NCBI RefSeq assembly: GCF_009914755.1
Contig: NC_060933.1
DNA length: 64,000 bases
From: the human T2T-CHM13v2.0 reference genome, Homo sapiens
Direction: 5' to 3' (one strand)
Made by a program: the position numbers and the translations under genes. This document shows, piece by piece, positions 4,314 to 35,753 of this stretch (the stretch's first letter is position 1; each line of letters starts with the position of its first letter). The notes under the pieces were generated by a model. It was given only the letters and a program-made list of their open reading frames with translations, was not told where the DNA came from and did not search any database.

Positions 4314-4506
4314 TGTTAAGATTGCAGAGTTTTGGAATTTATTCTCTGAGGATAAATGAACATGGCCTGAGGAGTAACTAAATTTTTTATCAGGATAACT
4401 TTTAATAGAGATTGTTGCATCAAATGCTTCAGTGTATCCATAAACTTGAATCACAATATTTTCAGATGCTCCAACACGGAATATTTTTGGTGCTGAAATG
4501 ACATAT
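4314..4506 (-). CDS. C5: Complement C5 exon 2 ([20 protein letters not shown]...[10 protein letters not shown]1 domain)
   Basis: ttcaacag| acceptor, |gtatgt donor, 193 nt; lies within ORF 4260..4535; in frame with exon 1. Confidence 0.98.
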
Positions 4507-4854
4507 CTGTTGAAAAAGGAAAAGATAAGGCTCAATGTCTTTATATGACATATTTTCTTTTACTTTTGATTTTTTTCTCTCACTTGAGAGATTCCATTTA
4601 AAATACATATATTTCCTCACTTAAAAATGATACTAATAAGTCAAAATGTACTTGTGACCCACCATAACTTCAGCATAATTTCCAAGTAGTTTGGAATTAA
4701 GACCTGAGAAGCTGGAGGTTTAGTTTACATTTAGAAAGTTAAGGTGATAGCAGCACTTTCTCTTAGCTACTGCAGCCAAGGAAGACTTTTAATCATGTTG
4801 ACCAGAACATGTAAATGGGGTCAATATTTTTTGCTCAATGAAGAAAAAAGCAGT

Positions 4855-6240
4855 GATTGAATTCCAGCTGTGGCATCTGCTGGCTGAGTGACCGTGGTAA
4901 AGTCACTAAGTCTTTCTGAGGCTAAAATAACTTACTGTGAAAATAATCACCTTCTTTACCAGGCTCTGGTAAAGATTAAATAAGAACATATATATGAAAA
5001 GGTCTAGCACTCTTAGTACTCAATACATGTTAAGATTTATTAATCTCACTAAATTAGTTTAAAGGGAGTGATCTTAGAAATACTATGTTATACTAGTAAA
5101 CGGATAACGGAAAGGATAGAATATGAGTGAGCTGGGAAGTGCATTTGGAAATGGAAATAGTGATGATGGTCCTTTAAGAGCAAATCATCATCTTCAAACA
5201 ATAATGGTAATTAAGTACTTGCCACATATCAGAGGCTGTATCAGCACTTTACATACAGCTCTTGTTAATTTTTACAATAAGCCAATGATGCTGGTACTAT
5301 CATTATTCGTACTTTGCAAGTGGTAAAAGGCTAACTTGGCTAAGGTTATACGGTTTGTAAGTAAATGGGGGAGGCCTTTATATCAGTTCTCAGTTGTTAT
5401 GTGTACAGTTGAGGTCAAGTTTATATGTTATTCACAACCATAGACTGTTCTCTTATTTTTACTTTTCATGTGATTTATACAATAATGGAAGTGAGTCTAT
5501 ACATGCTTTTGAGTGATTTTTAAAAATTATTTTATTTAAAAACTTACAAATATAAACTGGATTACTAAGTGTATATCACAAAAGTATCTAATTTGAATAG
5601 CGAGAACTACATACGCTATTACATAGGAAAAAAAAGTGTTTTAACCCAAAAGGGCATAGTGATCGACTAATTCAAGTGGCCCAACAAGCTTGGAGGGCAC
5701 CCACCACCCCACCTGGCAGAATTATTCCAGGCTTCTGCCAACATTGTGACATTTTAAGAGTCTGGTAAAAGCAGGAAGTTTTTAGTAACAATGGAATTAA
5801 TTTATCAGCAATTAAATCCTTTAAAGCATCTGACAGTTATCCTGCATTACAATTAATTTGGATCCACTTACAGGCAAATTACAAAAGAGAGGAAAGAATT
5901 TCCAGATTTCCAACCATCATCTGAATTCCCCTTCCCCACATGCCTAGTAGGAGATGGCAGAAAATGAGAGGAGTTCAGTTTTTATGATAATAAGATATAT
6001 TTACTGAAATTTTGCCCTGTGATAAGGCACTATTCTGAATACTTTATTTGTATAAACTCATTGTGTCATTACAACCACTCTGTGAGGAACTATTACTCCA
6101 ATTTTAAGGTGAAGAAACTGCTAATTAATTTTCCCAAGGCCACACATATAGGATTTATGAATTCTATAATTCACAAATTATAGAATTAGAAATCGAACCT
6201 GAGCAGCCCGTTTCCAGAATTAACATTTTCAACTGTTGTA
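4855..6240. mobile_element. Several MIR fragments (about 4855-5030 +, 5200-5350 -, 5990-6240 -)
   Basis: MIR core-like motifs (gtcactaagtctttctgag; attttaaggtgaagaaactg; cccaaggccacaca). Confidence 0.6.
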
Positions 6241-6368
6241 CTAAATGGAATTTATAAAGAGTTTTGTAATTAGAAAAATTTAGGGATATAAGGCTACTTT
6301 AATTTCAGTATTTATAGAAGCTTTATGTTTTTAAGTTTAGTATTGCTTTAATTTTGAATTGTGTATGG

Positions 6369-6710
6369 TAGGGGTCCCCAACCCCTGGGCCATGGACAAA
6401 TACCAGTCCATGGCTTGTTAGGAACCAGGCCACACAGCAGGAGGTGAGCAGTGGGGCAAAGGAGCATTACCACCTGAGCTCTGCCTCCTGTCAGATCAGT
6501 GGTGGCATTAGATTCTCCTAGGAGCATGAACTCTATTGTGAACCGCACATGCGAGGGATCTAGATTGCAAGCTCCTTATGAGAATATAATGCCTGATGAT
6601 CTGAAGTGGAACAGTTTCATTCTGAAACCATCCCCACCCCAATCCTGGTCCATGGAAACATTGTCTTCCACAAAACCTGTCCCTAGTGCCAAAATGGTTG
6701 GGGACTGCTG
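6369..6710 (+). mobile_element. MER1B (hAT-Charlie MITE)
   Basis: Termini aggggtccccaacc...ggttggggactgctg; 8-bp TSD-like gtgtatgg/gtctatgt. Confidence 0.9.
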
Positions 6711-6929
6711 GTCTATGTGATGGTAGCCGTCAAGCAAAAATACATAGTGTTTAGAAGCCCCTAAAAGAATATTCTGGAACCACCCTTTATAAAGATTTTG
6801 GTTCTTATTGACTTATCAGTAGCATAAACTATCCATATAAATAATTTCATAGTTTTCTTTGTCTTTCAATTGCTGCAGAGGATCAGGTTACTGAGCTTGC
6901 AGAGAGGCAAGAATGTTATTTTGGCCTCT

Positions 6930-7262
6930 ATCTGGAATGCTCTTTCCTCAAATATTTGCATGGTTTGCTTCCTCACTTCCTTCAGGCTCTGTTTGAGTGC
7001 AGCCTCCTTAAGAGAACCTTTCCTGGCCACATTTTAAAATAGTGCCCCATAATTATTTTTTAATTCTCATACTCTGCTTTATTTTTTTCTTCATAATACT
7101 ACCTACCTGACCTTACACATTCTTTCATTGGTTCATTCATTCATTACTTGCTTCTCCCACTAGAATGCAAGCTCTAGGAATTGTCTTACCGTTTGCTATA
7201 TCTGCAGTGCCTATCATATGTTTAGATGCTCAATAAATATTTGTTGAATCAATCAATCAACC
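6930..7262 (+). mobile_element. L2 3' end
   Basis: ctggaatgctctt...ccactagaatgcaagctc...gctcaataaatatttgttgaat. Confidence 0.8.
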
Positions 7263-8309
7263 AATTAATTAAAGTGATTGATTGCCATGTTGTAAATGGT
7301 ACACTCTGACTTCTTCAGAGAAAGTGAGGAAATAATTTTTATTAAGGGCTAGTAGAAAGAATTCAGAATAAGTCTGGACAAGAATCATGGAACCCAGGTC
7401 CTAGCCCTAGTTCTGCCACCAATTTGAAGTCACTTAATTTCAGTCTCTCTAAGCCTTAGCTGCTCGTCTTTCAAAAAGAATAAAGGCAGGATGCTAAGGT
7501 AGTTGAGTGCTTGTGGCCATGTAAAAAGATCACAGATCAGAAATACGAGGGTGCTAAAAAAGAATGATATCCTAAGTATGTGTTTATATATAATATATTT
7601 ACATGTATACATTTATGACAAAATGAAAAAAATTGAAGTGATAAACAGGAGACCTTAATAAAAATCCTGTTTCTCTCTCTCTAGAACTGTGACCTTTGGT
7701 CAGTCACTTCCCTTATCTGGACTTATTCTCATATATAAAATGAATAGGTTTGATTAGATGATCTGCAGTTACTTTTCAGTATTAAAATATTTCTAGATAT
7801 AAGATCATTATTTTTAAAACATTACTTAAAATGCATATTATCTCAATAATGACACTAAAAATTGTGAAAAGTCAGCTCATAAATGTATGGTAGAAGTCAC
7901 TACAACAACAGATTTTCAGATCACAGTATTAGATTGACTCCTAAATAACCCTGGTTTAACTGTGTATAGTCTATGAAAAACACAAAGAAAACTAAACACC
8001 AAGTTAAAATAAGCAAAAAATGTCAAGAAAGTTTATTATCTGGAGTTTCTTTTGTGCTTTTTTGAAGAGGAATTTGAATAATCACTTACGTAAATTTTAA
8101 TAAATAACAATTCCATAAAAGCTGTCATGTTGTTAGCTACTCATCAAATCAAAATGCTTCCATGACTTTCTCATTCAGAGATGATACTATTCACTTGCTG
8201 TTCTCAGAAGTAGCAAGTTATTTTCAAGTTAACAGAATCTGTTAAATTTAACTCTTCATTCGTCATAACTAAGATGCATTGAAAAATGAAGATAGCTTGT
8301 TTTACTTAC

Positions 8310-8374
8310 GTTTGCTCCTGTCCCCAGGTTTTCCCCAGGAAGATTAAAAAACAAAGTATTCCCAAAAGGCCCAT
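8310..8374 (-). CDS. C5: Complement C5 exon 1, coding part (signal peptide [18 protein letters not shown] + QEQT)
   Basis: Reverse complement reads ATGGGCCTTTTGGGAATA...GGACAGGAGCAAAC|gtaagt; 65 nt, phase-2 donor; matches the known human C5 N-terminus. Confidence 0.98.
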
Positions 8375-8480
8375 GGTTGGAGGTAGCAGGAAACCACGGA
8401 TATAACACTTTTGAGGATAGTCTCCTTTTAAATAAACTGAACTTGAAGAATTCAGATAATCTGGTTAATTATTAATGTCA
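8375..8480 (-). promoter_or_regulatory. C5: C5 proximal (liver-type) promoter and short 5'UTR, with an HNF1-like site and a TATA-like element
   Basis: GTTAATTATTAAT at 8464-8476 (HNF1 consensus GTTAATNATTAAC, 1 mismatch); TTTATTTAAAA on the minus strand near 8426-8436; directly upstream of the ATG. Confidence 0.7.
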
Positions 8481-9250
8481 GAAAGGTGAACCTCTAAGTG
8501 GGAAAACTAGAATTGGAACTAAAACACCCTTTCATGCCCAGGAATACAGATAGGGAGTACTTTACAGGAACTTACACCCAGGGAATTTATTTTTATTAAT
8601 ACAAATAAAGGGACCCTAAAATGGGAATTTGGCACTATGAAGAGTGGCTCAAAGCTAGAAACCAGTAAGCCCATTGCTTTGGCCTTTCTTCTCTTGCCCA
8701 GGGCATTTGCTTTGATGTTGCATCATCTGCAAGCATACATCTGGCAGGTCCACTCTAATACTGATGAAGACCCACCTGGACTCAGTTTCACACTGAAATG
8801 ATTTTAGAAGGGGCCTGGTTTAGACAGGGCTCACAAGATGATCTTTTTTTGGTGACCTGAATGGCAGTGTCCTTGGTGCTGCAAATGGTCTGAGCATAAC
8901 CTAGCTCTGCAAAGGAGGTCTAGGGAATTGTTCCTTGGTCTGTCTCAGTCTAGAGAACACTAGGTGGAGGAAAGTTGTGACTGGCAATGAAAACGCCATG
9001 TGGAGGATGCTGTCGTCATTCTCTAAGTATTGGAGAATAGATATTCTCCAATATTTATTAAGGCATATACCACTCGTTCAAAGTTTGTCTTTATTCAGAT
9101 ATAGAATATCTTTCTTTTAAAGAAAACACATGTTATACTTTTCAGTGAGGATTTTAATAATTTTAATATAAGAGCTCCAGAAAAACAAAGCTTCCTATAA
9201 CAATTGAGTCTAGTAATTAATTCACAATATACTAAAATTTTATCTTTATA

Positions 9251-9582
<332 letters not shown>

Positions 9583-10302
9583 TTATGTTCATTAGAATTT
9601 TTTTATTTACTACCTTCTCTTTTTTAGTACTATTTTTACCTTAATATATAATATGTACTCTTCTTTAAAATAATAAAACAGATGTCTCTAAACATATTTC
9701 TATAATGAGATATTTATGATATATAAATGAGATATTTATGGTCACATTGGCATTCTTTGCTTTGAATTAATAAATAATAAACCAAAAATATTTATAAACA
9801 CTTTAATGCTGAATTCACTAGGGAAAAAAGGAGCACAAAGGGAAATTTGATATACAAATTTCACTAAAGGTATCTCTTGCATATGTCATTGAAATGACAA
9901 ACATTTGCCACTATTGTCTGATCATCTAGCCCATTTATTTCAAAAGGGAATCTGTGAAATGATTAAGCTGGGTTGCAAAAGATGGGTCAAGTTAAAACAA
10001 ACAGTACTTTTGCCATCATTTTTGGGAAATGAAATTTAAGAGAGAACAACAACACTCAAATCAAGGTAGGTAATATTTGTATTTTAAGTGCAAATAAGTT
10101 TGTTTGCTTGAGCTATAGAGTAAATACTGATAACCAATATTTGCAAGCCATTGTCCTGTTTCTCTGGTAGAAAACATTTAGAGAATGATGGATCTCAAAG
10201 ATTCTCAACAGAACTGAAGTTTAACAATTTATAGATTCTAAGCTGTGTTTAGTCAAAATTTTTTATCTACCTTCTAAATGTGGCTCACAGATGAACTTTT
10301 GA

Positions 10303-10602
10303 GGCTGGGCACGCTGGCTCACACCTGTAATCCCAGATCTTTGGGAGGCCGAGGTGGGTGGATCACCTGAGGTCAAGAGTTCAAGACCAGCCTGGCCAAC
10401 ATGGCGAAAACCTGCCTCTACTAAAAATACAAAAATTAGCCAGGCGTGGTGGCGGGTGCCTGTAATCCCAGCTACTTGGGAGGCTGAGGCAGGAGATTCA
10501 CTTGAACCTGGGAGGTGGAGGTTGAGCACAGATCACGCCACCGCACTCCAGCCTGAGCAACAGAGCCAGACTCCATCTCAGAAAAAAAAAAAAAAAAAAA
10601 AG
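10303..10602 (+). mobile_element. AluS-type SINE
   Basis: Full dimer plus poly-A. Confidence 0.93.
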
Positions 10603-11574
10603 ATGATTTTTTTTCTTTATAATTTAAAATGTGACCTTTGGTAAGCCTTTCATTTTTATACAAATACTGCATTTCTAAAAGAGAAGAAACTCAGATCTGG
10701 CAGAAAGTTTGGTGGTCACCTGACCTTCCTGCTAATGCTGCCTCAATTGTCCCCTCATGATTGAGCCCAAATGACCTAGCCTAGTGCACCAGGCCCCTCT
10801 TGAGCCCTGCTTAGTTCTCCAGCCTCAACATTCCATTCTTCACTCCGGCCAAGGAGCTGAATTACCTGATTATTCCCTGAAGTCACCTTGACACCAAGGT
10901 GCTCCTAGCAGGATAATAATTTTGTATCTTTCAAATGGATATTCTTTAGTTATTTTGTACTTACTTGGTAAAATATGTCTGGACACCAATTTTCTATTAA
11001 TACAAACTACAGAACTCTTTTTTACGTATAATAAAAAGATTTTATCATGTATAATTTTCAAAATCAGACAGCTTACAGGGAGGTATATTAATGGGTTGTA
11101 AATTTAGAGAATAAAAAATAAGTGACATTGTGTTTGTTATTGTTTTCAGAAATTCAGCCCATCAGATTGCGAACTTCAAGTGCCTGCTGGCTGGCTAGAG
11201 TAAGAGAGGTGATGTGACCCATAGCTGCCCCAGGTAATTTTCATGTGCCTGTTCCATGTCCAGAGGCCAGTGGAGAAACAGAGGCGTCTCCTCAGAATTA
11301 AATTATTCTAAATGGAGACACGGGAATCATACAAGTTTTGTTCAAGAGTGGTAGGCTGGCACTAGGCAGGTGGGTTATTCTAAGTAAAACCCAGTATTTG
11401 TCCCTCTGACTGCTTTTTGGCTCAAGCCCGCAGTCTCACGTTTTAATCCTTTAGGAGAAAGGCTCTACTAAAAGGCCAACTGAAATCCAAAAAGAACTAC
11501 TTCAGTAACTCTCCATGGGATATAGAGGAGAAAGGCACTGGAGGCTTCGGTGCCAGCAGTTTAAAGACTGACTG

Positions 11575-15938
<4,364 letters not shown>

Positions 15939-16573
15939 AGAATCCTTTTTAGAAGGCACTCTAAACAGTTTTGTCTCTTGTTATGGCATTGATTGCCTTT
16001 AGTAGATTCCGTGTAACCTACTTCTTTATCTCATAAGTTGTAGAAGTTCTTTGCTCCAAAATATCCTTCTCAGACTTTAAATCCGGTGTTGTTTGAAGCA
16101 TTCTTCTCGCTTCTCAGTAATCAGTCTAGCAATTAAGAGGAAATGCCATAAATGTTAATCACGTCTCAATAAGACCTGTAAACTCCACTGCATTTAAACG
16201 AGATTTTATGAGACTCAGACATACAGGATGTATTCTCAGCCTTTAAGGAGCTTATCCAAATGGTGACAACACAATAGCTACCCATTATTAGCTTCCAACA
16301 TTTATCAGTTATTGTGATAATTAACTTGCTAAATTATCTCTCATCTTGACAACCATGCAGAAGGGTGTTATTACCCTCTGGTTACCAATGAGTAAACTAA
16401 GGCTCAGAAAAATGTAGTGCTTCAGGGAACACATCTAATAATTTGCAGAAATTTCGATTTGATTGTTTGGGATCCATAGAAAAAAGCCAGGAAAGATACG
16501 AAACCATGCTGAAGTCTTACCTTCTCTTTGACACCTTCTCCAGATATATGTGTGTATATATATGTATATATAA

Positions 16574-16963
<390 letters not shown>

Positions 16964-17686
16964 TAGGCAAAGGTTCAAATGCACAAGGTGGGAATAAATG
17001 TGACATAATTGAATACCTAGTCTGGCTTATGTCTGGTTCTCCCTTCCTCAATAGAGCTGGAGCAAGACTGGCTGAAATGACCACCAGGCAGATGGCAGAT
17101 TGGGAAGACAAACTGAAAAGGTGAGAGGTGGAAAGAGTCAGAGAATAACTGGATAAGCCACATTCTGGGAAATACAGTGGTTCAAATCCACCGTGGATAA
17201 ATTTGTATTTGAAGATTGAATGGTAACTGGGAAAAATAGAGAAGGAAGCCATTGCTTAAACTATGCTTGAAAGTCACCAAAGCAGTGGGTTGGAATAGCA
17301 TGTCCCAAAAGGCCACTTCACATCCTAAATAATAATGGAATAGGATAGGATTTCAGATAAGGAAGTAGGGAGGAAGTGGAAAATAATAAGGCTAAGAGAA
17401 AATCCAGTGTTAATAATGGAATTTAGTTAAGCATATTTTCCTTAGAGGAATCAAAAGGAAACAACATACAAGGAGGAGATGCTCACTCTCCCTTTATCTC
17501 TCACAGTTTTATAACCTCACCTGAATCTGTTCTTTCTGTACCCTAGACCTTCTAATGAATCAAGCTCAGCTCATTAACCACCTTCTTTGGTTCCACTGAG
17601 CCACGCTTTTTCAGACAATGTTGCTTTTTGTTCAGCATAAGTTCCTTCATCTAATTCTAATACCTGTTACTCATCCAGTGGCTAAA

Positions 17687-18190
17687 TGTGGTAGCCAGAC
17701 TCCAAGATGGCTCCCAGTGGTCCTTACCTCCCTCGTATTCATGCCTCTGTGTGGTCCCTTCCCACACTGTATCACACCGATTCATCTGACCAATAGAATA
17801 CAGCAAAAGTGAAGATGTGTGACTTCTGAGGTTAGGTCATACAAGACATTGCTGTTTCTGCCTTTTTCTCTCTTGAACGGCCTGTTCTAGGGGAAGCCCC
17901 CATGTAGTGAGCACACTCAGGAAGCCTATGGAGAAGCCCACGTAGAAAGGAACCACGGCCTCCCGCCCAGAGCCATGTGAAGTGAATCCTCCAGCCCTAG
18001 TCATGCCTTTAGGTGGCTGCAGCCCAGCTGTCATCTTGACTGCAACCTCATAAGAGAACCTAACCCAGAATTACCTAGCTAAGCCATTCCTGAATTCCTG
18101 CCCATAGGAACTGGGCAGATAATTAAGGTGTGTTGTTATCTTACGTCATTAAGTTTGGGGGAATTTATTACATAGCAATAGTAATTTTAC
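17687..18190 (+). mobile_element. MLT1F-like MaLR LTR
   Basis: tgtggtagccagactccaagatggctccc start; ttacatagcaatag...taca end. Confidence 0.8.
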
Positions 18191-18351
18191 ACTAGATTAG
18201 CTGTTTTTCTAAAAATATAACTTTCATCAAAGCTCCTTACATTCACTACCACCACCCAAATAGGTCCTTGCTCCTCGGTCATCAATGCTTATAATTTGCA
18301 AGTGTACTTTAAGTTCCTGAAGAGCAGCAGCTTCAGGAGCCTACTTTGAAA

Positions 18352-18365
18352 GCGCCACCTGCTGG
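18352..18365 (-). promoter_or_regulatory. CTCF motif
   Basis: Minus strand CCAGCAGGTGGCGC fully matches the core consensus CCASYAGRKGGCRC. Confidence 0.75.
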
Positions 18366-19033
18366 TATTAACTTAATAGCTTCCCAAAGAAAGCTGGAAT
18401 AATTCGTGCTGATTAAGTCAATGCTTAGGTGCGACAGCTTTTCATGGTAAACTCTGGCTTCTCATCTTACATTAATAACTCTTCTGAGAACCAGCTTCTT
18501 TGCTTCCTTGAGATAACAGCTGCTTTGCCTTCTTCTTAAGAATGCTGAAATGCGATCTTTCTTAGCACTGAAAATCACATAAACATTTATGGAGTTCTTA
18601 TGATTACTCTTTCTAGGATTACTGTTTCTTGCTTTTCCAACTCTTTTCTTTCTGCTTCAATTATTTTTAAAAGAAGACATGCTAAAGTCTCTGTTTTTTA
18701 CAAGAAAAAAAACCAGGTATCACAAAATCTTTGAATTTTTTTTTCCTTCCAAAATAACTGCCAAATCTCTCAAAACACTTAGTCTATCCCTCCCCGCCCC
18801 ACCCAGCTGACTCTAAGTAATTTTATTTCCCCCTATTTATCCTGAGACCCCTAGAATGCTTTCTGGATCTCTTCATAAAAGTTATATAGAAAATATTAAA
18901 TTAATAAAATAATTGCCCAGCAGCAGAAGTCACTTGATGTTGGTTGGAATGATTCAGCATTATACTCATTTTACAGACAAAGAATCTGATAATCAGAAGG
19001 TCTGTATTGCTTCATTTAAAAATCCCAGAATCA

Positions 19034-19744
<711 letters not shown>

Positions 19745-20860
19745 TTAACATCATTGTAAATAAAGGGAAATTAGTAACTTTAATTATTGGCATGACTTTT
19801 ATCATTCATCTTCATATTGTGCACCAGTTTAAGCTGCAAATATAACAGCATTTCACTTGCATGTGCAATTACCAAAATTACACCATTTGTATGTCATAGT
19901 TCATACATGTATATATATTCCATTCTTCCCAGAACAGTGGAAATTATGCACAAAACTAGCTCAGCTGTTTTTATTTTACTTTTTGATATGTGTATGTTCT
20001 ACCCACACTCTCCACCTTTGCTTTCTGAGGACAAGGAAAGCCTGAAAGAAAAAGAAACTGTGAATTATCCTATCTTTCCCTTTCTTTCTATGTTATCATA
20101 TTCAAGGTACACATAATAGTTCCCTAATACAAGGAAATACCATGAGTAAGAAAGGATATGATAAGGCTCCTTGTTTTTTTGTTGTTGTTTTCTTTTTTTC
20201 TTTTTTAGCATGCCTTCACCATCTTTCTGCACTCAAAACAAGTTCCTGTTCCAATGGAGAATGTGGTCTCTTCAGGCTGTCAGTGCCCCGGCTTGCTCAG
20301 CCACAGACATACTTTTCTTAATACTTTGTACTCACTTTGATTCCCACTAAACTTCTGCACCTTGTGAGCCCACTGGAATTCTGTGTTCACAGGGTATTGT
20401 GAATGCTCTGTGTGAATGAGGAGGCAAGGAATTGTGGACATAAATATCGTGCTGTCAGACTTCATTTATAAAAAACAAGCTCAAAGATAAAATTATTAAT
20501 AAATGCAGGACAACAGAGCATTAAACCAAGTGTGGGGCCCTTCTGCGTGTGGGGTTTGGGGTGACTGCATAGGTTGCATGCTCATGAAGCCAGCTTTGGA
20601 GTAGCTAAGTCAGGAGTAAACTCATATCTGACTTCAAAGACAAATCTCTTAACACTTCACAAGGAATCTCCTCTAATAACACAAGGCAAGGCATTGGCAG
20701 AGTAAACAAAGAATGTCAAGAACATGAGAAAATTTTAAGACAACTAGATAACATCAAGCTGCTTCCCTTGGGTTCTGTGATCATTAGTGCTACGGTCTGA
20801 ATGTTTGTGTCCTCTTGAAATTCTTATGTTGAATCTTAATCACCAAAGTGATGGTATTTA

Positions 20861-21780
20861 CAGAATTTTTGGTTGACAGTCTTTTTCTTTCAGCACTTTG
20901 AATATATCATCTTTCTACTTAGTAGCCTCTGTGCTTTCTGATGAGAAATCAGCTGTTAATTTTACTGAGGATCCTTTGTACTATCATGTGTTGCTTTTCT
21001 CTTGTTATTTTCAAGATTATCTCTTCATCTTTGACACTTGACAGTTTTATTATGATGTAGTCAGGTGTGGTTCTCTTTGAGTTTATCATACTTGGAGTTC
21101 ATTGAGTTTTCTTGAATGTGTGGATTAATGTGTCTCATCACATTTGAAAATTTTGACCATTAGTTCTTCAAATATTTTTTTCTGTCCTTTCCTCTCTCTC
21201 TCGTCTCCTTCTGGAACTCTCTTCATGCATATGTTGGTATGCTCGATGGTATACCAAAGGTCTGTCTTTATGTATATGTTTGTGTTTTCTATGGCATACC
21301 AGATGGTCTACAGGTCTGTTCATTTTTCTTAATCCTTTTTTCTTTCTGCTCCTCAGACTGGATAATCTCAATTGATCTATCTTCAAGTTCATTGATTCTT
21401 TTTTTCTCCCTGCTCAAATCTGCTGTTGAGTGTCCCTATTGAATTTTTTATTTCAGTTATTGTAGTTTTCAAATACAGAATTTCTATTTGGTTCTTATTT
21501 ATAATTTTCGTCTTATTCTTTGTATGGTAAGACGTAGCTCTTACACTTCTCTTTAGTTCTTTAGATGTGGTTTCTTTTAGTTATTTGATCATACTGAAAA
21601 TATCTCACGTAAAGTCCATATCTTGGAGATCAAGATTTCCTCAGGTGGTTTTTATTATATCTTTTCCTTGTATGGGCTACACTTTCCTGCATCTTTGCTT
21701 GTCTTGTAATTTTTTGTTAAAACTGGAATTTAAAAAATTTAAAATTAAATAATAGAATAGAGCAACCTGGAAAATTTGAC
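20861..21780 (-). mobile_element. Old L1M ORF1-region fragment, preceded by an MLT1A-like LTR fragment (about 20788-20860)
   Basis: Antisense ORF1 motifs (tctgatgagaaatcagctgttaat; tcagactggataatctcaattgatctatcttcaagttca). Confidence 0.8.
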
Positions 21781-22872
21781 CTGTAGGTTAGATTTGAACC
21801 TTAATTTAGAAATGCTTCTATTTTTATGCTGTAGTGGCAATGTGCAAAATGTTTTTGAAAAATTGTTTGCAGCAATATCCAGAAAGGTCATAGGACTGCA
21901 ATGCTTTTCCATGAAGGTAACCCTTTAACCCTATGAAATAAGATATGATGGTCCCCATTTAACAGGATAAAAAGTTAGTGATTTATTCCAGTGAAAATTA
22001 TAAAAAGATAAGGATGCAAAAATGCCTTCCAAAATCTAGTTAACTTTTAAAACTGGTGGTTATTCTGGGGAAAATGGGGAATATTATCCCATTAATGAAT
22101 CTTGAGATATTTCTTTGTAAGAAGAATTATATCACTGCTTCTCATGAATCTCACCAGCATTGACCTATGACCCCCATCTCTTCCATTTCAGTTCTTTTAA
22201 ATTTTACTTATTCACTTTGTTCTTGTTGTTCTTTTTATTTTTTGTTTTTTTAAATTATTCTTTTTTCCTTTTCCTACTCTATTTCTCATTTCCATTTCTT
22301 TTCTCTGTAATATATAATCGAGTATGATTTTATGTATTTGAGATTTTATGTTTTTCAATCTTAAGTTAACTTCACTTTTTTCATTTGTAGAATAGGAGAT
22401 ATTGTCTACTCTGTCCACCTAACAGGGTCGTTGTAAGTTTTAAACAATACTTGTTATAGCTCCAGAAAACTATAAACTAGCTTCTGTTGCTTCCTAGTTT
22501 ATTTCTTTGAGTGTTTTGTTAACTTTCATATTGAAACTGTTAACAAAAATACATTTCCTGATAGTTCTTATTAGACCCCAAGATTTCAGTATTTCATCTG
22601 TGATAGAATTATTGCTGCAGATTTTCATATGTGATAGAATCTGATATTTTGAATGTCATTTTATACTTTTTCAAATGTTAGCAATTTTTATATTCTCTCA
22701 TAAATTCCTCAAATAATTTATCAACTTTAATTTTGTATTTCTATCAATTAAATTTTTAAAATTTAAATTCAAAAGCATTGGTAAAATATCAGATCTTCTA
22801 AGTTTGACTTCTAAAGCTGAATGTCAATTAAATTAAATTTTAAACATATAGAGTTAAACTTAATTCAAACTA

Positions 22873-25713
<2,841 letters not shown>

Positions 25714-25730
25714 TCAACATTTGAAACATA

Positions 25731-26103
25731 TGGTATGGTTTGGCACTGTGTCCCTACGCAAATCTCATGTCAAACTGTAATCCCCACGTGTCAGGGAAGG
25801 TACCTGGTGGGAGGTGGGTGGATCATGGGGGCAGTTTCCCCATGCTGTTCTTACCATAGGGAGTAAGTTCTCATGAGAGCTGATGGTTTAATAGTGTGGC
25901 ACTTCCCCTCTCCTCCTGCTGCTTCAAAAGATGTGCCTTGCTTCCCCTTTGCCTTCCACCATAATTTTAAGTTTCCTGAGGCCTCCCCAGCCATGTGAAA
26001 CTGTGAGTCAATTAAACCTCTCTTCTTTATAAATTACTCAGTCTCAGTAATTACTTTATAAATTACTCAGTTCTTTATAGTAGGGTAAAAATGGACTAAT
26101 ACA
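25731..26103 (+). mobile_element. MST/THE1-type MaLR LTR
   Basis: tggtatggtttgg start; ctgtgagtcaattaaacctc...atggactaataca end. Confidence 0.85.
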
Positions 26104-29135
<3,032 letters not shown>

Positions 29136-29136
29136 G

Positions 29137-29805
<669 letters not shown>

Positions 29806-30571
29806 ACAAAATCACACTGGCCAGTCACAGAAAGAAATGGCAATAATGAAAGTTGCCATCCCTGTCTGACAAACTAGTCTGTTTCTTCTCTAAAACAAAT
29901 TCGCAAAATGATTAAACTGGGTTGCAAAAAGCTGAGGGAAGTTTAAACAGAATAGCTTTGCTATCATTTGGAAAAAAAAGGACTGAGTAAAAGCTTGGTC
30001 ACCCTGACGTGGCTAATATTTGTATTGTAAATGCAACTCAGAGTACATTCTTCATAATATCAGATAAAGAAAAATAGTGTGGAACGCGAGTTGTCTGCGT
30101 TACTTTCGTATTCTCACTTCTGCTTTGGAGAAGGAAGTTCTTTTAGCATGCTAAGAGAGACAGTTAATATTCAAATTAACTGGAGAAAGGTCTCTCCTTT
30201 GAAGTCTCTAGCTTCGTTAGAGATGATGCTAGACACCAGCAGAGGTCTGTATGAGGAGGAAAAGGGGGCAACATGGGACCGGTGAGTGCCCATCCGCGGC
30301 TAACTGGATACGGACTGAGAGATCACCCAAGAGAAAAGTGTTTTGCGCCACCCTCTGGACTTTTTATGTATATTTGATGGCTATTAATTGATACTAATAT
30401 GATTGATAATGAACTACATCAGCACACCACGGCTTGATAATGGATCCCACGTGAATACCATTACAGACTTTGAGGGACACAGCAATGAGGTTACGCAATA
30501 AATCTAAGTTTCTGGGTACAAGAAACCGAAACGATGGGTGTCAAAACATATGCAAATAGAACTGAAACTCA

Positions 30572-30955
<384 letters not shown>

Positions 30956-31575
30956 ATGAATGTAATCTCCTCTTAAGTGGAGCTTTTCAAAAATTCTGCG
31001 TTTAAACTCCAAGGGCTTCGTTCTGTGTCGTGTAAATAGTTGGGGAGAGGACAGCACCATTCACTTAAATGTCAATGGGAATCACATTTAAGTAAAAGGA
31101 AAAGGAAATCAGTAAATCAAAGTAAATCAAAGACACATCTGCATCCCCATGTTTATTGCAGCTTATTCCCTGTTGGACGTCCCCTGAATTTCCTATAGAG
31201 GTGAAGCCATCTCTGCCTTAAGGAAAAATGAAGTGCCTAATACTGCTTATAATATGGTCCCTTTTCCAGATTTAGCTTCTCCACCCCAGATTTTTGCACA
31301 AGCCATACTGAACTACTTCATGTTTCCATACTCATGTTTTGTTCCAGCCACACTGAATTACTTAACATTCAGCACATTGCCAAGCTCTTTTCCCCCGCTT
31401 CCGGGGTTTGCACAAGTTGTTCCCTTTGCCAAGCAAATTCTTCCCCACCTCCCTACTCCTTGCCTAAACTCTTCTTTTGGGCGTAGAAAGAAGTATTGCT
31501 TCTGGGTAACCTTTGTCTAATAATGAAATATCTAAGACATATTGAGAACTTACTATGGGTCCCTCACTGTTCTAA

Positions 31576-31984
<409 letters not shown>

Positions 31985-32860
31985 TCATAGATAAGGAAAC
32001 TGAGACACAGAGAGAGAGGGAGTTTCTAAAAGTGTTATACAGGTGGCCTATAAACTCTGTAGTGAAGAAAGGAAATGAAGACAGGATAGAATGATCGCGA
32101 GAAAATGGTAAGAACAAGGGACTGGAAGACGCAAGGAAGTTTAGAAATACGCTGGCATAGGGGTCTTTTGAGCAGGCACGCTGCTAAGATGATAGGATTA
32201 TAGTCAAGGATGGGGAGCGATTGCACTGGGGATTTCTGGAGCGGGTGCAGCCTCTGATGGTAACATGGTCCAGGGTATACCTTCAAAACGGGAGGCTACT
32301 GGAGTGAAAGGCGTCAATGGTGATAACACTTTAAAAAAAACTTCAGTGTTTCCCTAGCATCCAGCCCAGTATCTGCTAAATTCTTTAAAATATCTGTTGA
32401 ATGCATGTCGTGAACGCCGTGCTCATGGGCAAGCCCCAGATGAAGCCTGTGCAAGTGCTTCTTGCTTTAACTCCCTTGTAGCAATCAGAGGAACATCCTC
32501 TGCCTAGGATTCCCAAGCTCCCTGAACCTCACGCGACAGCTGGAGCCCAGGCTGCGTCCGCTTTGAGGTTCATCCGAGCCTGGGCAGTTCGGTCCCTGGA
32601 GGGAATTCGCTTTAGATACGACTGTCAGAGAGAAGTGTGCTGATAAGAACACTCGCTCATAGCGCGCAAGCATCAGAAGTGGGGGAGGCCGGGGAGGCGC
32701 TGCGCCGGTGCCTCAGGCCGTCCTCGGACACAGGCCCTGAGAAGCGTGTCCGTGTTTCAGAGGGTGGCGGCGGCAGCTTTGTCTCAGCGAAGGCCACAGC
32801 ACTGCGGGCAGCTGCCGCATGAAACCTCGGCTCCCCCTGACTCTGCACCCGACACTTCAC

Positions 32861-32943
32861 CTGCAACGCAATCCGAAGGCGAAGGCACCGCATCCCGTCG
32901 GCCCCGCGCGGCCGGAAGCCTCGCGCCCAAGACTCCCCGGCAT
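32861..32943 (-). CDS. C5: Alternative C5 first exon (MPGSLGREASGRAGPTGCGAFAFGLRCR), no signal peptide
   Basis: ATG at 32943, 83 nt, CAG|gtgaag donor, phase 2 like exon 1, so it joins exon 2 in frame (AG|A TAT); C-terminal part of ORF 32857..33075; agrees with my recollection of a longer RefSeq C5 isoform (not verified here). Confidence 0.75.
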
Positions 32944-33059
32944 CCTAGCGCGCTGGCTGCAAAAGAGGCGGGAAACGCCTCCGCGTCCCTTCCAACAGTA
33001 CCGGAGAGGGAGAGGGGCGTGGCTGAGACTAGCCCCGACCACGCGCGCGCGGCCCCTCG

Positions 33060-33174
33060 GCAACCGGCACAACACAACAAAATGGCTGCCGCGCCGCTGG
33101 GCCCCTGAGGAAAGAGCCCGAACTTCTCCCGCTCTACCTCAGCCTGCGGGACTGCTCGGCTCGGCTTCTAGGCG
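33060..33174 (+). other. CNTRL: CNTRL non-coding exon 1 (5' end approximate)
   Basis: GCG|gtgagc donor at 33175 within the CpG island, upstream of the CNTRL coding exons. Confidence 0.75.
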
Positions 33175-33679
33175 GTGAGCGTCAGACCTGGCCGAGCCCG
33201 TTCCCCGGCATCCGGCCCGAGCAGTGGGGGCCGGCGGCAAAGGCGGGAAGGCCCGGACCGGGCGTGGTGTGGGCCGGCTTGGGATGGATTCGGGGCGGGG
33301 GCGCGTGTCTGGGAATTGGGATTGGACGGGAAAGAGGGGAGGGCCCGGAACGGGCGTGGGGCGGTGGATGAAGGAGGGAGGTTTGGATGGGAAGAGGTGG
33401 GGACGGCGGGGGCGATTGGGGATGAAGAACCAGAGTGTGGGGAGGTGTGGAAGTTAGGGTGCGGCGCCCAGAAGGTTGTGGGTCCTGCCACCTGAGCTGA
33501 GGGGAGAGCTGGGATGTGCCAGCTGTCTGTGGGGAGTGAGCGGGAGAAAGGACAGTTTGGGCGTCCTGACGGGTTGTCACGGTATCGGACGGAGTACAGT
33601 GCGTGGAGAAAGATGACAGGATATGGGGACGAAATGCTAAAAGAAGGGGAAGAACAAACACTTCCGTTATATTCGTTAA

Positions 33680-34400
33680 GGGACTAGAGAATTTTGAAGC
33701 CAGACAAACTTGGGTTGAAGCCTCAATTCTGCCACCTTGTGTAACTTAACCAGGTCTGTGACCCTGGATATGTGTCTGAGCCTTCCTGATCATGTTTCCT
33801 CATTTGTCCAAATAATTGCGAATCATTTTTGGGTGTTCACTATTTGTCAGATCCAGTTTTAAGCACTTTGCACGTATTAACCTCATTTAGAATTTAAAAT
33901 AACTTGTATGAGGTTATCATCCCCATTTAAAAAGTGATAGCACTGAGGACCAGAGAGGTTAAGTAATTTGCCTAAGATCACACAGTAAGTGGAAAATCAG
34001 AATTTGAACTCAGGCTGTTTCGTTCCAGAATCCAAGCTTTTAACTGTTCAGGTACATTGCCATTTGTAAATCAGGTTAATAATTCTGATCCTATACAGCT
34101 AAATCTTTGAGGATTTAAATTTGGTATTGTCTAAGTGTTTAGTACAGTCCTTCAGTCAACAAATATTTATTGTTTATAGAACAACAGACAAAACCTCTGC
34201 TCTCTTGTAGCTTATAGTCTAGAAGGAGAAACAGGCAACAACCAAGTAGTTTCACAAATAATGGTTATAAAATGCTATGAAGGAGACTGCTTGGTGCAGA
34301 GATCATGGGTAATAGGGAGATAAAATCTTCTGCATCTTGAGCTTAGATTCTAGCATGGTTCTTCCTACATAAAAGTTGCTCAATAAAATTGAATAATTAA
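33680..34400. mobile_element. MIR and L2 fragments in CNTRL intron 1
   Basis: MIR motifs (actgaggaccagagaggttaagtaatttgcctaagatcacacag); L2 motif tcaacaaatatttattg. Confidence 0.7.
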
Positions 34401-35753
34401 TGGAAAGAGATGGGAAGCTTGAGTTTTAGGGTATCTGAGCAGAAGAAGAGAGATGGGAGAGGGGATTCAGGCTTTTAATAGGATGGAGAAGGATACGGGG
34501 GCTAGAGTATTAGGATGGAAAGGCAAATAGGCAGGCAGTTGGGTTGGGATGAAGAGGAATGGATGGAGGTTTGAGTATTTTGTTTAGGGAGGGGAGTAAT
34601 TGGAGGTCAGAGTATTGGAACGCATTAGGATGTCAGGGTATTTTCTGGGGTGAAGAGAGATGAGCAGCTTGGGAAGTCTGGATGGATAGAGAAATGTTGA
34701 GTCTGGGCACAGGAAAGAACCATAGAGAAATGGGGGAGACTATTACTGTGTTAGGGAACTGGGATAGAATTTGTGGGAAAATTGGCAATCAGAATGGGAT
34801 AAAGAAGAATGGGAGGCAGAGGTGGGTGGGCAGCACAGAATGGGGGAATTGGCTTTGGAAAGAAAAATGGCTGGAGACTTTGCAGAGGAATCGGAATCAG
34901 GATATTTGAAAGGAGGAGAAGATTAAGGAGTAAAAGTATTTCAGTAGGTCAGAGGGTATGGGATGAAGTAGACTTGGAAAGTACTGAAATCCAATTAAAG
35001 GGCTAAGGAGAGGGATATGGGGGTTAATAAATGGGGATGGGTATTTGCATATTAGGGAGTCTGTAGAGAGACAGAAGGAGGTCTGCGTTATTTGGAGATC
35101 AGAGAAGATGGGAAGTTAGGAAGGTTAGGAAAGGCTGGATGGAGGTGGAGTTTGCAGTCTGTACTAAGCTGTGATGGACTGAATTGTTAGATCAGAGCAA
35201 CTATCTGGGTTTATAGGTGGCAGGATGGGTAGTGTTTTGTTGCCTGGACGTAGGATTCTGATTATCATGTCATTCCAATGGCTTTCTCTTGCTCTGCAGA
35301 CAGCCTTTAAAATACAACTGCAGCTCTGAACTTTATTTGCTTTTTTTTTCTCTTTATCCTGCTCCTTTACTCGCCCTAGCCTACCTCTCAGTTGTCTTCA
35401 TTTTTCCATTGCTTGCTTGGTCTTTGTTCATGTGATTGCAAACAACATCCTAGATCAAACTACATCCTCATCTCTCCATTAAAATTATAATTCAGCATTT
35501 ACCACCTCCAGGCAGTAGCCTAAGAAATAATGCCAGCCATTCTCAAACACTGTAAACCCCTAAGCCCACTTCACTGAGTTAGCTATTCTCTGAGACTGAT
35601 TACGTCTATCTTGTTTCAGTGTCCAAGCTTTACAGAAGCTGTGGCAACCAAGGGTTTAAGTCTATGAATGAGTAAGCCTGACTTTTACTAATCAGGAGAG
35701 GTAATAAAGGACCTCATGATAGTCTGGTGAGACCTAAAGGGTCTTGATCATTA

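What the first reader, a model, noticed from the sequence alone, without database searches (positions are those of the whole stretch)
32861..32943. Signal-peptide-less C5 isoform from the CNTRL housekeeping CpG-island promoter
SEEN: an ATG-initiated 83-nt exon with a CAG|gtgaag donor, in phase with C5 exon 2 about 28 kb away. It replaces the hydrophobic signal peptide with MPGSLGREASGRAGPTGCGAFAFGLRCR, which lacks a hydrophobic core. KNOWN: canonical C5 is secreted via its exon-1 signal peptide, and intracellular complement activity has been reported in immune cells. I recall a RefSeq C5 variant with this N-terminus, so the exon itself may already be annotated. INFERENCE: divergent transcription from a broadly active centrosomal-gene promoter could make non-secreted C5 outside the liver.
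Basis: partly seen in the sequence, partly recalled or inferred. Interest (0 to 1): 0.7.

Follow-up and report, generated by a model that had tools for sequence, protein, structure and literature searches.

The report
Known alternative first exon of C5
This is an already annotated alternative first exon of the human complement C5 gene, driven by the CpG-island promoter it shares with CNTRL; it swaps C5's secretion signal for a weakly hydrophobic leader, but whether it yields a working intracellular C5 is untested.

Summary
On the minus strand, ATG 32943 opens an 83-nt coding stretch ending at 32861 with donor CAG|GTGAAG. It is in the same phase as canonical exon 1 and open into C5 exon 2 across a 28,354-nt intron. 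The hub's RefSeq table already lists this exon (32861-32972), so it is not new.

It lies 89 bp head-to-head from the CNTRL start, inside a 1,090-bp CpG island. The canonical C5 promoter is CpG-poor.

The new N-terminus replaces the 18-residue signal peptide plus four mature residues. Its best hydrophobic 7-mer scores 1.74, against 3.53 for the canonical leader. A functional signal peptide is therefore unlikely but not excluded.

Nothing in the sequence shows selection for coding. Open and in phase is expected about 19% of the time by chance, and the peptide's composition is typical of a translated CpG island.

None of my ten answered literature searches, nor the five complosome reviews and one commentary I queried, links this exon to intracellular C5. 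The functional idea is plausible, has precedent (IL1RN, C3) and is untested.

The parts
32861..32972 (-). Alternative first exon of C5 (RefSeq bounds): 29-nt leader plus 83-nt coding part
   Evidence: Hub RefSeq table ('exons of other transcripts 32861-32972'). Sequence read. Unique in the genome: 1 match of 1 candidate, the window itself.
32861..32943 (-). Coding part: ATG plus 27 codons plus 2 nt, phase 2. It encodes a Gly/Ala/Arg-rich 28-residue leader.
   Evidence: The -3 position is A (GCTAGGATGC). There is no other minus-strand ATG between 33210 and 32944, and the nearest in-frame stop upstream is at 33139.
32855..32860 (-). Intronic half of the splice donor (GTGAAG)
   Evidence: 7 of 9 matches to the recalled donor consensus, and the only site at that level from 32980 to 32300.
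4507..32860 (-). 28,354-nt intron of the alternative transcript. It contains the canonical C5 promoter and exon 1.
   Evidence: The first minus-strand AATAAA/ATTAAA lies 1,815 nt from the alternative start, and there are 44 such hexamers in total.
8310..8403 (-). Canonical C5 exon 1 (signal peptide), bypassed by the alternative transcript. Its promoter is CpG-poor.
   Evidence: The 1 kb around 8403 has GC 0.37, 4 CpG and o/e 0.12.
4314..4506 (-). C5 exon 2, the shared acceptor exon. It encodes residues 23-85 of the 1676-residue precursor (residues 5-67 of the mature beta chain).
   Evidence: 8 distinct PDB sequences matched, all complement C5, the best with E 7.4e-37 and all 63 residues identical in the printed alignment. 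Acceptor read.
32461..33550 (.). CpG island covering both transcription starts
   Evidence: 1,090 bp, GC 0.66, CpG o/e 0.79, 92 CpG. One search shows GC 0.65-0.72 across it.
32973..33061 (.). 89-bp core between the two annotated, divergent starts
   Evidence: Hub table. There is no TATA or CCAAT match in 32850-33200. A GC-box-like match lies at 33015-33022, and an E2F-like match at 32968-32975 overlaps the alternative start (the consensus motifs are recalled).
33062..33174 (+). CNTRL exon 1 (non-coding), the partner of the divergent promoter
   Evidence: Hub table. A YY1-like match lies at 33079-33086 (the motif is recalled).

Best explanation
The feature is the RefSeq-annotated alternative first exon of human C5. 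I recall the transcript as variant 2 and the protein as 'complement C5 isoform 2'. It is transcribed from the minus-strand side of the bidirectional, TATA-less CpG-island promoter whose plus-strand side drives CNTRL. A 5' splice site 112 nt from the start joins it to C5 exon 2, 28.4 kb downstream, skipping the liver-type CpG-poor promoter and the signal-peptide exon. The first AUG is in frame. The mRNA therefore encodes full-length C5 in which residues 1-22 (the 18-residue signal peptide plus the first four mature residues) are replaced by a 28-residue Gly/Ala/Arg-rich leader, giving an inferred 1682 residues. That leader most likely does not engage the ER translocon. Any protein made would then stay in the cytosol as unglycosylated, uncleaved single-chain pro-C5. 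This parallels what is described for C3 expressed without its signal peptide. Shown here: the exon anatomy, the phase, the CpG island, the divergent arrangement and the weak hydrophobicity. Inferred: cytosolic fate, expression outside the liver, expression level, and any function. My expectation is low-level expression.
For: The ATG, the 83-nt coding part, the donor and the phase are as stated, and the frame is open into exons 2 and 3. Exon 2 encodes C5 residues 23-85. The exon is in the hub's RefSeq table. The island is 1,090 bp and the starts are 89 bp apart, whereas the canonical promoter has CpG o/e 0.12. The hydrophobic peak is 1.74 (7-mer) and 1.59 (9-mer), against 3.53 and 3.23 for the canonical leader. 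A proteomics table prints the RefSeq-style name 'Complement C5 isoform 2' without 'preproprotein', while C3, C4-B and C2 in the same table carry it (PMC10853944, passage). The AUG is the first on any minus-strand transcript starting between 33210 and 32944, and it has A at -3. The first poly(A) hexamer is 1.8 kb downstream, and the minus side has fewer of them (44) than the equal length on the CNTRL side (70). Precedents exist. IL1RN makes intracellular icIL-1Ra1 through an isoform-specific first exon that removes the signal peptide (PMC8009184, passages). C3 without its signal peptide is a cytosolic, unglycosylated pro-C3-like protein (PMC10086947, passages).
Against: No expression, translation or protein data could be consulted. 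Open and in phase is expected about 19% of the time by chance. The peptide looks like any translated CpG island: its G+A+R+P fraction is 0.59 against an island mean of 0.49 (sd 0.10), and 23% of 1175 stop-free windows reach it. GC by codon position is 0.67/0.78/0.74, with no coding-like pattern. The leader has two Arg before a 13-residue uncharged stretch, and its hydrophobic peak is in the top 13% of island windows, so weak ER targeting is not excluded. Reported intracellular C5 processing involves cathepsin D, and complement proteins are reported in endosomes and lysosomes. That is lumenal topology, which canonical C5 or uptake would explain. C5 is a large disulfide-containing protein (recalled) and may not fold in reducing cytosol; the reviews raise this concern for C3.
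Confidence: 0.55

Rival explanations
1. Transcriptional by-product. Divergent initiation at the CNTRL CpG island happens to meet a usable 5' splice site and the strong exon-2 acceptor, giving a rare mRNA. No stable or functional protein results, because a signal-less C5 misfolds and is degraded.
For: The chance of open and in phase is about 0.19. Peptide composition and codon-position GC are indistinguishable from translated CpG-island sequence. None of my ten answered literature searches found a paper on this isoform's biology. The five complosome reviews and one commentary I queried do not mention it in the matched passages.
Against: RefSeq lists it under the gene. I recall it as a curated NM_ record, which would need transcript support. 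The first-AUG position, A at -3, a leader that folds no more stably than shuffles (z +1.61), and the late first poly(A) hexamer all permit productive expression.
Confidence: 0.3
2. The new leader still works as a weak signal peptide or uncleaved signal anchor. The CpG-island promoter then simply supplies secreted or membrane-tethered C5 in non-hepatic cells.
For: Arg7 and Arg12 precede a 13-residue uncharged stretch. The 7-mer hydrophobicity of 1.74 is in the top 13% of island-derived peptides. Local extrahepatic C5 production and lumenal (endo-lysosomal) C5 processing are reported.
Against: The hydrophobic peak is half that of the canonical leader. The uncharged stretch holds four Gly, one Pro and one Thr, and its longest run of strongly hydrophobic residues is 4. 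The RefSeq-style name lacks 'preproprotein'.
Confidence: 0.1
3. The transcript matters mainly as transcription, not as protein. Read-through from the upstream promoter crosses the canonical C5 promoter at 8403 and modulates it (transcriptional interference or opening), or it balances CNTRL output.
For: The 28.4-kb intron contains the whole canonical promoter and exon 1. The hub table lists enhancer and silencer elements at 32326-33466.
Against: Nothing in the sequence bears on this. The coding frame is intact, which interference would not require.
Confidence: 0.05

Closest known systems
IL1RN: secreted sIL-1Ra versus intracellular icIL-1Ra1
   Same: One gene and two promoters. An isoform-specific upstream first exon removes the signal peptide, and the protein is then considered intracellular (PMC8009184, passages).
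   Different: icIL-1Ra1 splices into an internal acceptor within the signal-peptide exon, and its protein and cell types are established. Here the whole signal-peptide exon is skipped and no protein evidence was seen. C5 is also a large multidomain protein that normally needs ER and Golgi processing.
Cytosolic C3 (cC3)
   Same: A paralogous complement protein made without its signal peptide. It ends up in the cytosol as an unglycosylated pro-form and is proposed as a source of intracellular complement (PMC10086947 and PMC12165798, passages).
   Different: cC3 arises from the same mRNA by downstream, possibly non-AUG, initiation. Here a separate promoter and exon supply a new upstream AUG and a 28-residue extension. 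PMC9095555 had none of my five C5- or promoter-related terms.
CD59 intracellular (IRIS) splice isoforms
   Same: A complement gene whose alternative splicing yields isoforms that act inside the cell.
   Different: Those isoforms keep the signal peptide, differ at the C-terminus, and reach the cytosol by retrotranslocation.
Bidirectional CpG-island promoters of head-to-head gene pairs
   Same: Opposite-strand starts 89 bp apart inside one TATA-less CpG island.
   Different: The minus-strand partner here is an alternative start of a gene whose main promoter lies 24.6 kb away and is CpG-poor. Divergent activity was not measured.
Gelsolin plasma and cytoplasmic isoforms (recalled, no call)
   Same: Secreted and cytoplasmic forms from one gene by alternative 5' ends.
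   Different: Both gelsolin forms are abundant and well established. This comparison rests on memory only.

Membership tests
Alternative first exon of human C5 (RefSeq, other transcript) | Exon bounds 32861-32972 on the minus strand within the C5 gene span | tested here: met
   Hub RefSeq table. The sequence at those bounds was read.
Alternative first exon of human C5 (RefSeq, other transcript) | ATG in the exon, open and in the same phase as canonical exon 1 into exon 2 | tested here: met
   83 nt and 65 nt, both phase 2. The translation is open through exons 2 and 3.
Alternative first exon of human C5 (RefSeq, other transcript) | GT donor and AG acceptor | tested here: met
Alternative first exon of human C5 (RefSeq, other transcript) | The downstream exon is C5 | tested here: met
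   the exon-2 translation equals residues 23-85 of 1676-residue C5 chains such as 3prx_A.
Alternative first exon of human C5 (RefSeq, other transcript) | Identity with accessions NM_001317163 / NP_001304092 | not testable with these tools
   The accession numbers are recalled. Searches show only that they are human C5 records used in papers, and one search shows the name 'Complement C5 isoform 2'. I did not see the record's sequence.
Bidirectional CpG-island promoter | Opposite-strand starts less than 1 kb apart | tested here: met
   32972 (-) and 33062 (+), with 89 bp between them (hub table).
Bidirectional CpG-island promoter | A CpG island spanning both starts | tested here: met
   32461-33550, GC 0.66, o/e 0.79.
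Bidirectional CpG-island promoter | Measured divergent transcription | not testable with these tools
   No CAGE or RNA-seq data are on hand.
ER (Sec) signal peptide | Positively charged n-region | tested here: met
   Arg7 and Arg12, with one Glu.
ER (Sec) signal peptide | Strongly hydrophobic h-region of about 7-15 residues (criterion recalled) | tested here: not met
   The best 7-mer scores 1.74 and the best 9-mer 1.59, against 3.53 and 3.23 for the canonical C5 leader. This is a crude scale, not a trained predictor.
ER (Sec) signal peptide | Predicted cleavage site / SignalP call | not testable with these tools
   No signal-peptide predictor is available.
Secreted-to-intracellular switch by alternative first exon (IL1RN type) | An upstream isoform-specific first exon removes the signal-peptide coding sequence | tested here: met
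.
Secreted-to-intracellular switch by alternative first exon (IL1RN type) | Intracellular protein demonstrated | not testable with these tools
   No data. The peptide strings were found in 0 papers (main texts only).
Cytosolic C3-type alternative translation initiation | Same mRNA, with initiation downstream of the signal peptide | tested here: not met
   Here a different first exon supplies an upstream AUG.

The most novel reading that the evidence does not exclude
The CpG-island-driven isoform is the main cell-intrinsic source of cytosolic pro-C5 in non-hepatic cells such as T cells, macrophages and tumour cells. If so, it feeds the reported intracellular C5a/C5aR1 signalling. Intracellular C5 would then be genetically separable from serum C5: the exon or its donor could be deleted without touching the liver promoter or CNTRL. 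This would answer the 'where does it come from?' question that complosome reviews leave open for C5.
Probability: 0.1. Interest if true: 0.75.

Novelty: already known. Interest (0 to 1): 0.3.

Why it matters
Reviews of intracellular complement ask openly how secreted complement proteins come to act inside cells. They cite an alternative start for C3 and splice isoforms for CD59. In the passages I matched, none mentions that the C5 gene itself carries an annotated signal-peptide-free first exon behind a CpG-island promoter. If that isoform is expressed and translated in immune or tumour cells, it gives a clean genetic handle on intracellular C5. If not, it is one more example of a divergent-promoter transcript captured by a downstream acceptor.

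There is also a practical point. Two papers took NP_001304092 as 'the' human C5 reference for modelling. If that record is isoform 2, as I recall, its numbering is offset by +6 from the canonical precursor (28 against 22 leading residues).

Tried and rejected

(2) Ten literature searches were answered. None returned a paper on the biology of this exon or isoform. One search was too loosely framed to be informative: 12,783 papers, and none of the 20 listed held 'intracellular C5'. One search hits were almost all protocadherin, acylcarnitine or CDC25C 'C5'. Supplementary tables were not searched, so isoform-level atlases may hold data I did not see.

(3) The accession search found 4 papers. In the three I opened or saw listed in detail, the accession served only as a generic C5 reference. 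I did not open PMC11341789 or PMC8500505.

(4) I asked which promoter the 'C5 promoter' reporter papers used. The passages seen do not say. The ChIP primer printed in PMC10091882 has no match in the window with fewer than 2 mismatches. The single 2-mismatch hit at 24902-24916 is at chance level, since 7 of 100 shuffles gave one. The ChIP was done in mouse cells. Dropped.

(5) PMC8902698 (mitochondrial C5aR1 paper) is not held.

(6) Rfam found 0 families at gathering score in 31500-34500.

(7) RNA fold of the exon gave -46.7 kcal/mol, and 194 of 200 shuffles fold at least as well. There is no special structure.

(8) A repeat or duplicated origin is rejected. The 301-bp query matched only its own place in the genome, and the hub lists no masked stretch of 100 bases or more between 30968 and 40760.

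(9) Mitochondrial targeting by the Arg-rich leader was considered but not tested. No predictor is available, and the many Gly and Pro argue against an amphipathic helix. I hold it at a few percent.

(10) Cross-species conservation could not be examined, because no vertebrate genomes other than the window's own are held.

Full report
WHAT IS THERE. On the minus strand an ATG sits at 32943-32941. From it, 83 nt run to 32861, where the exon ends in ...TTGCAG and the intron begins GTGAAG. The 83 nt make 27 codons plus 2 nt. The coding part of canonical C5 exon 1 (8374-8310) is 65 nt, also leaving 2 nt. Either first exon therefore reads C5 exon 2 (4506-4314) in the same frame.

A script that joined the exons by coordinates gave an open frame through exons 2 and 3 for both versions. 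The acceptor of exon 2 has a long pyrimidine tract followed by CAG. The intron of the alternative transcript is 28,354 nt, against 3,803 nt for canonical intron 1. The hub's RefSeq table lists 32861-32972 under 'exons of other transcripts' of C5 and lets the gene span end at 32972.

WHAT IT CHANGES IN THE PROTEIN. The translation of exon 2 matched 8 distinct PDB sequences, all complement C5. It covers residues 23-85 of the 1676-residue precursor chains (e.g. 3prx_A) and residues 5-67 of mature beta chains (e.g. 6rqj_B).

The alternative exon thus replaces residues 1-22, that is the 18-residue signal peptide and the first four residues of the mature beta chain. In their place comes a 28-residue leader with 7 Gly, 4 Ala, 4 Arg, 2 Pro and 1 Glu. 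The inferred length is 1676 - 22 + 28 = 1682 residues.

On the Kyte-Doolittle scale the best 7-residue window of the new leader averages 1.74 and the best 9-residue window 1.59. The canonical leader gives 3.53 and 3.23. The leader has two Arg ahead of a 13-residue uncharged stretch, but that stretch contains four Gly, a Pro and a Thr. I read this as probably not a signal peptide, at roughly three to one. No trained predictor was available.

One piece of indirect support exists. A proteomics table that uses RefSeq-style names prints 'Complement C5 isoform 2' without 'preproprotein', whereas C3, C4-B and C2 in the same table carry that word (PMC10853944, passage).

THE PROMOTER. A 1,090-bp stretch (32461-33550) meets the usual CpG-island criteria: GC 0.66, o/e 0.79 and 92 CpG (the GC profile is). 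The annotated alternative C5 start (32972, minus) and the CNTRL start (33062, plus) are head-to-head with 89 bp between them.

The kilobase around the canonical C5 start has GC 0.37, 4 CpG and o/e 0.12. The kilobase around the alternative start has 91 CpG and o/e 0.84. C5 thus has two promoters of opposite character.

In 32850-33200 there is no TATA or CCAAT match. There are single matches to recalled consensus motifs: E2F (32968-32975, overlapping the alternative start), ETS (32912-32919, inside the coding part), a GC/KLF box (33015-33022) and YY1 (33079-33086, in CNTRL exon 1). These are pattern matches, not evidence of binding. That the promoter is broadly active is general knowledge about CpG-island promoters and CNTRL. 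It was not tested here.

CAN THE TRANSCRIPT BE PRODUCTIVE? On the minus strand there is no other ATG between 33210 and 32944, and the nearest in-frame stop upstream is at 33139. Any start within that range would therefore use the same first AUG, which has A at -3. A second ATG at 32893 is out of frame and terminates inside exon 2. If the donor is not used, the frame stops at a TGA straight after it, giving the same 28-residue peptide.

The donor is the only site with 7 or more of 9 consensus matches in the 680 nt examined. The first AATAAA/ATTAAA on the minus strand is 1,815 nt from the start. There are 44 such hexamers in the 28.5 kb to exon 2, against 70 in the same length on the CNTRL side. 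By the recalled U1/poly(A)-site logic of divergent promoters, this is a permissive arrangement.

The exon RNA is not unusually structured: -46.7 kcal/mol, and 194 of 200 shuffles fold at least as well. No Rfam family reaches threshold in 31500-34500. The 301-bp region matches only itself in the genome.

IS IT MORE THAN CHANCE? As an annotated exon it is real. As evidence for a selected coding function, the sequence is silent.

In the island, 1175 of 2018 windows of 27 codons are stop-free. With the 1-in-3 phase requirement, about 19% of arbitrary ATG-donor pairs would be 'open and in phase'. The peptide's G+A+R+P fraction (0.59) lies within the island's distribution (mean 0.49, sd 0.10; 23% of 1175 stop-free windows reach it). 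GC by codon position is 0.67/0.78/0.74, without a coding-like pattern. Its hydrophobic peak is in the top 13% of island-derived peptides, and none of them reaches 3.0.

Conservation, which would decide this, could not be examined, because no other vertebrate genome is held.

WHAT IS IN PRINT. The accession numbers I recalled exist in the literature as human C5 records (4 papers). Two papers took NP_001304092 simply as the C5 reference for modelling.

Five reviews of intracellular complement and one commentary were queried by term. They are JCI 2025 PMC12165798, IJMS 2026 PMC13163260, Immunometabolism 2019 PMC6642051, Br J Pharmacol 2020 PMC8359399, Immunol Rev 2022 PMC10086947 and Br J Cancer 2023 PMC9902547.

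- Four of them cite the alternative start of C3: PMC12165798, PMC6642051, PMC10086947 and PMC9902547.
- PMC12165798 and PMC10086947 also cite the CD59 splice isoforms.
- PMC10086947 has a section headed 'Where does it come from?'.
- PMC13163260 had no occurrence of 'isoform' or 'signal peptide'. PMC8359399 had none of 'signal peptide', and its one 'isoform' hit concerns CD46.
- None of the six mentions an alternative C5 first exon in the matched passages.
- The C3 paper PMC9095555 had none of my five C5- or promoter-related terms.

Isoform-specific peptide strings occur in 0 papers (main texts only). I saw passages, not whole texts, and no supplements. An isoform table somewhere may list this transcript. 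With that caveat, I found no published link between this exon and intracellular C5.

HOW IT MOST LIKELY WORKS. I commit to the following, at about 0.55. Minus-strand initiation at the shared CpG island gives a spliced mRNA, and its first AUG yields C5 without a working ER signal. Any protein made stays cytosolic as single-chain, unglycosylated pro-C5. [quoted passage not shown] I expect the level to be low.

Against a functional role, four points stand:
- There is no sign of coding selection.
- Folding a large disulfide-containing protein in reducing cytosol is difficult, a concern the reviews raise for C3.
- Reported intracellular C5 cleavage involves cathepsin D, a lysosomal protease by my recollection. 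Complement proteins are also reported in endosomes and lysosomes. That compartment is reached by signal-bearing or internalised C5.
- Making C5a from unprocessed pro-C5 would need cuts on both sides of the C5a segment (recalled C5 architecture).

Three rivals remain: a by-product without stable protein (0.3), a weak signal or anchor that still gives ER entry (0.1), and a mainly regulatory read-through across the canonical promoter (0.05).

COMPARISON AND VERDICT. The mechanism class is well known. An upstream isoform-specific first exon that removes a signal peptide is how IL1RN makes icIL-1Ra1 (PMC8009184). It differs from cytosolic C3, which uses the same mRNA and a downstream start, and from CD59-IRIS, which keeps the signal peptide and changes the C-terminus.

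The exon itself is annotated, so novelty is 'already known'. What is not in print, as far as my searches reach, is the proposal that this isoform explains intracellular C5. That proposal is a testable hypothesis of moderate interest rather than a finding. I score it 0.3 overall. The bold reading, that isoform 2 is the principal source of cytosolic C5, gets about 0.1 probability and 0.75 interest if true.

Noticed in passing
window 32857-32862 (minus strand): If the donor is not used, the frame runs into a TGA immediately after it. An unspliced divergent transcript would therefore encode the same 28-residue peptide as a stand-alone micropeptide.
   Followed up: partly
window 32893 (minus strand): The second ATG in the exon is out of frame. 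After splicing it would terminate inside exon 2 after 25 codons, so leaky scanning would not give C5.
   Followed up: yes
window 32968-32975, 32912-32919, 33015-33022, 33079-33086: There are single matches to recalled E2F, ETS, GC/KLF-box and YY1 consensus motifs. The E2F-like site overlaps the annotated alternative C5 start, and the ETS-like site lies inside the coding part. These are pattern matches only.
   Followed up: no
window 4507-32972 (minus) versus 33062-61528 (plus): The poly(A)-signal hexamers are asymmetric: 44 on the C5 side and 70 on the CNTRL side over equal lengths. The first minus-strand hexamer is 1,815 nt from the start.
   Followed up: partly
literature: Two papers took NP_001304092 as the human C5 reference for structure modelling. 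If that record is isoform 2, as I recall, its residue numbers are 6 higher than canonical numbering.
   Followed up: no
literature: Reporter and ChIP studies of 'the C5 promoter' (STAT1) do not say, in the passages seen, whether they cloned the CpG-poor canonical promoter or the CpG-island one. Tools that take the most upstream RefSeq start would pick the latter.
   Followed up: partly
window 30601-30880, 31581-31960, 32121-32320: Small CpG-rich patches lie upstream of the island on the C5 side. The first lies almost wholly within a stretch the hub lists as repeat-masked (30614-30967).
   Followed up: no
window 10985-17132 (plus strand): The predicted lncRNA LOC124902261 lies antisense within the 28.4-kb alternative intron (hub table). 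It was not examined.
   Followed up: no
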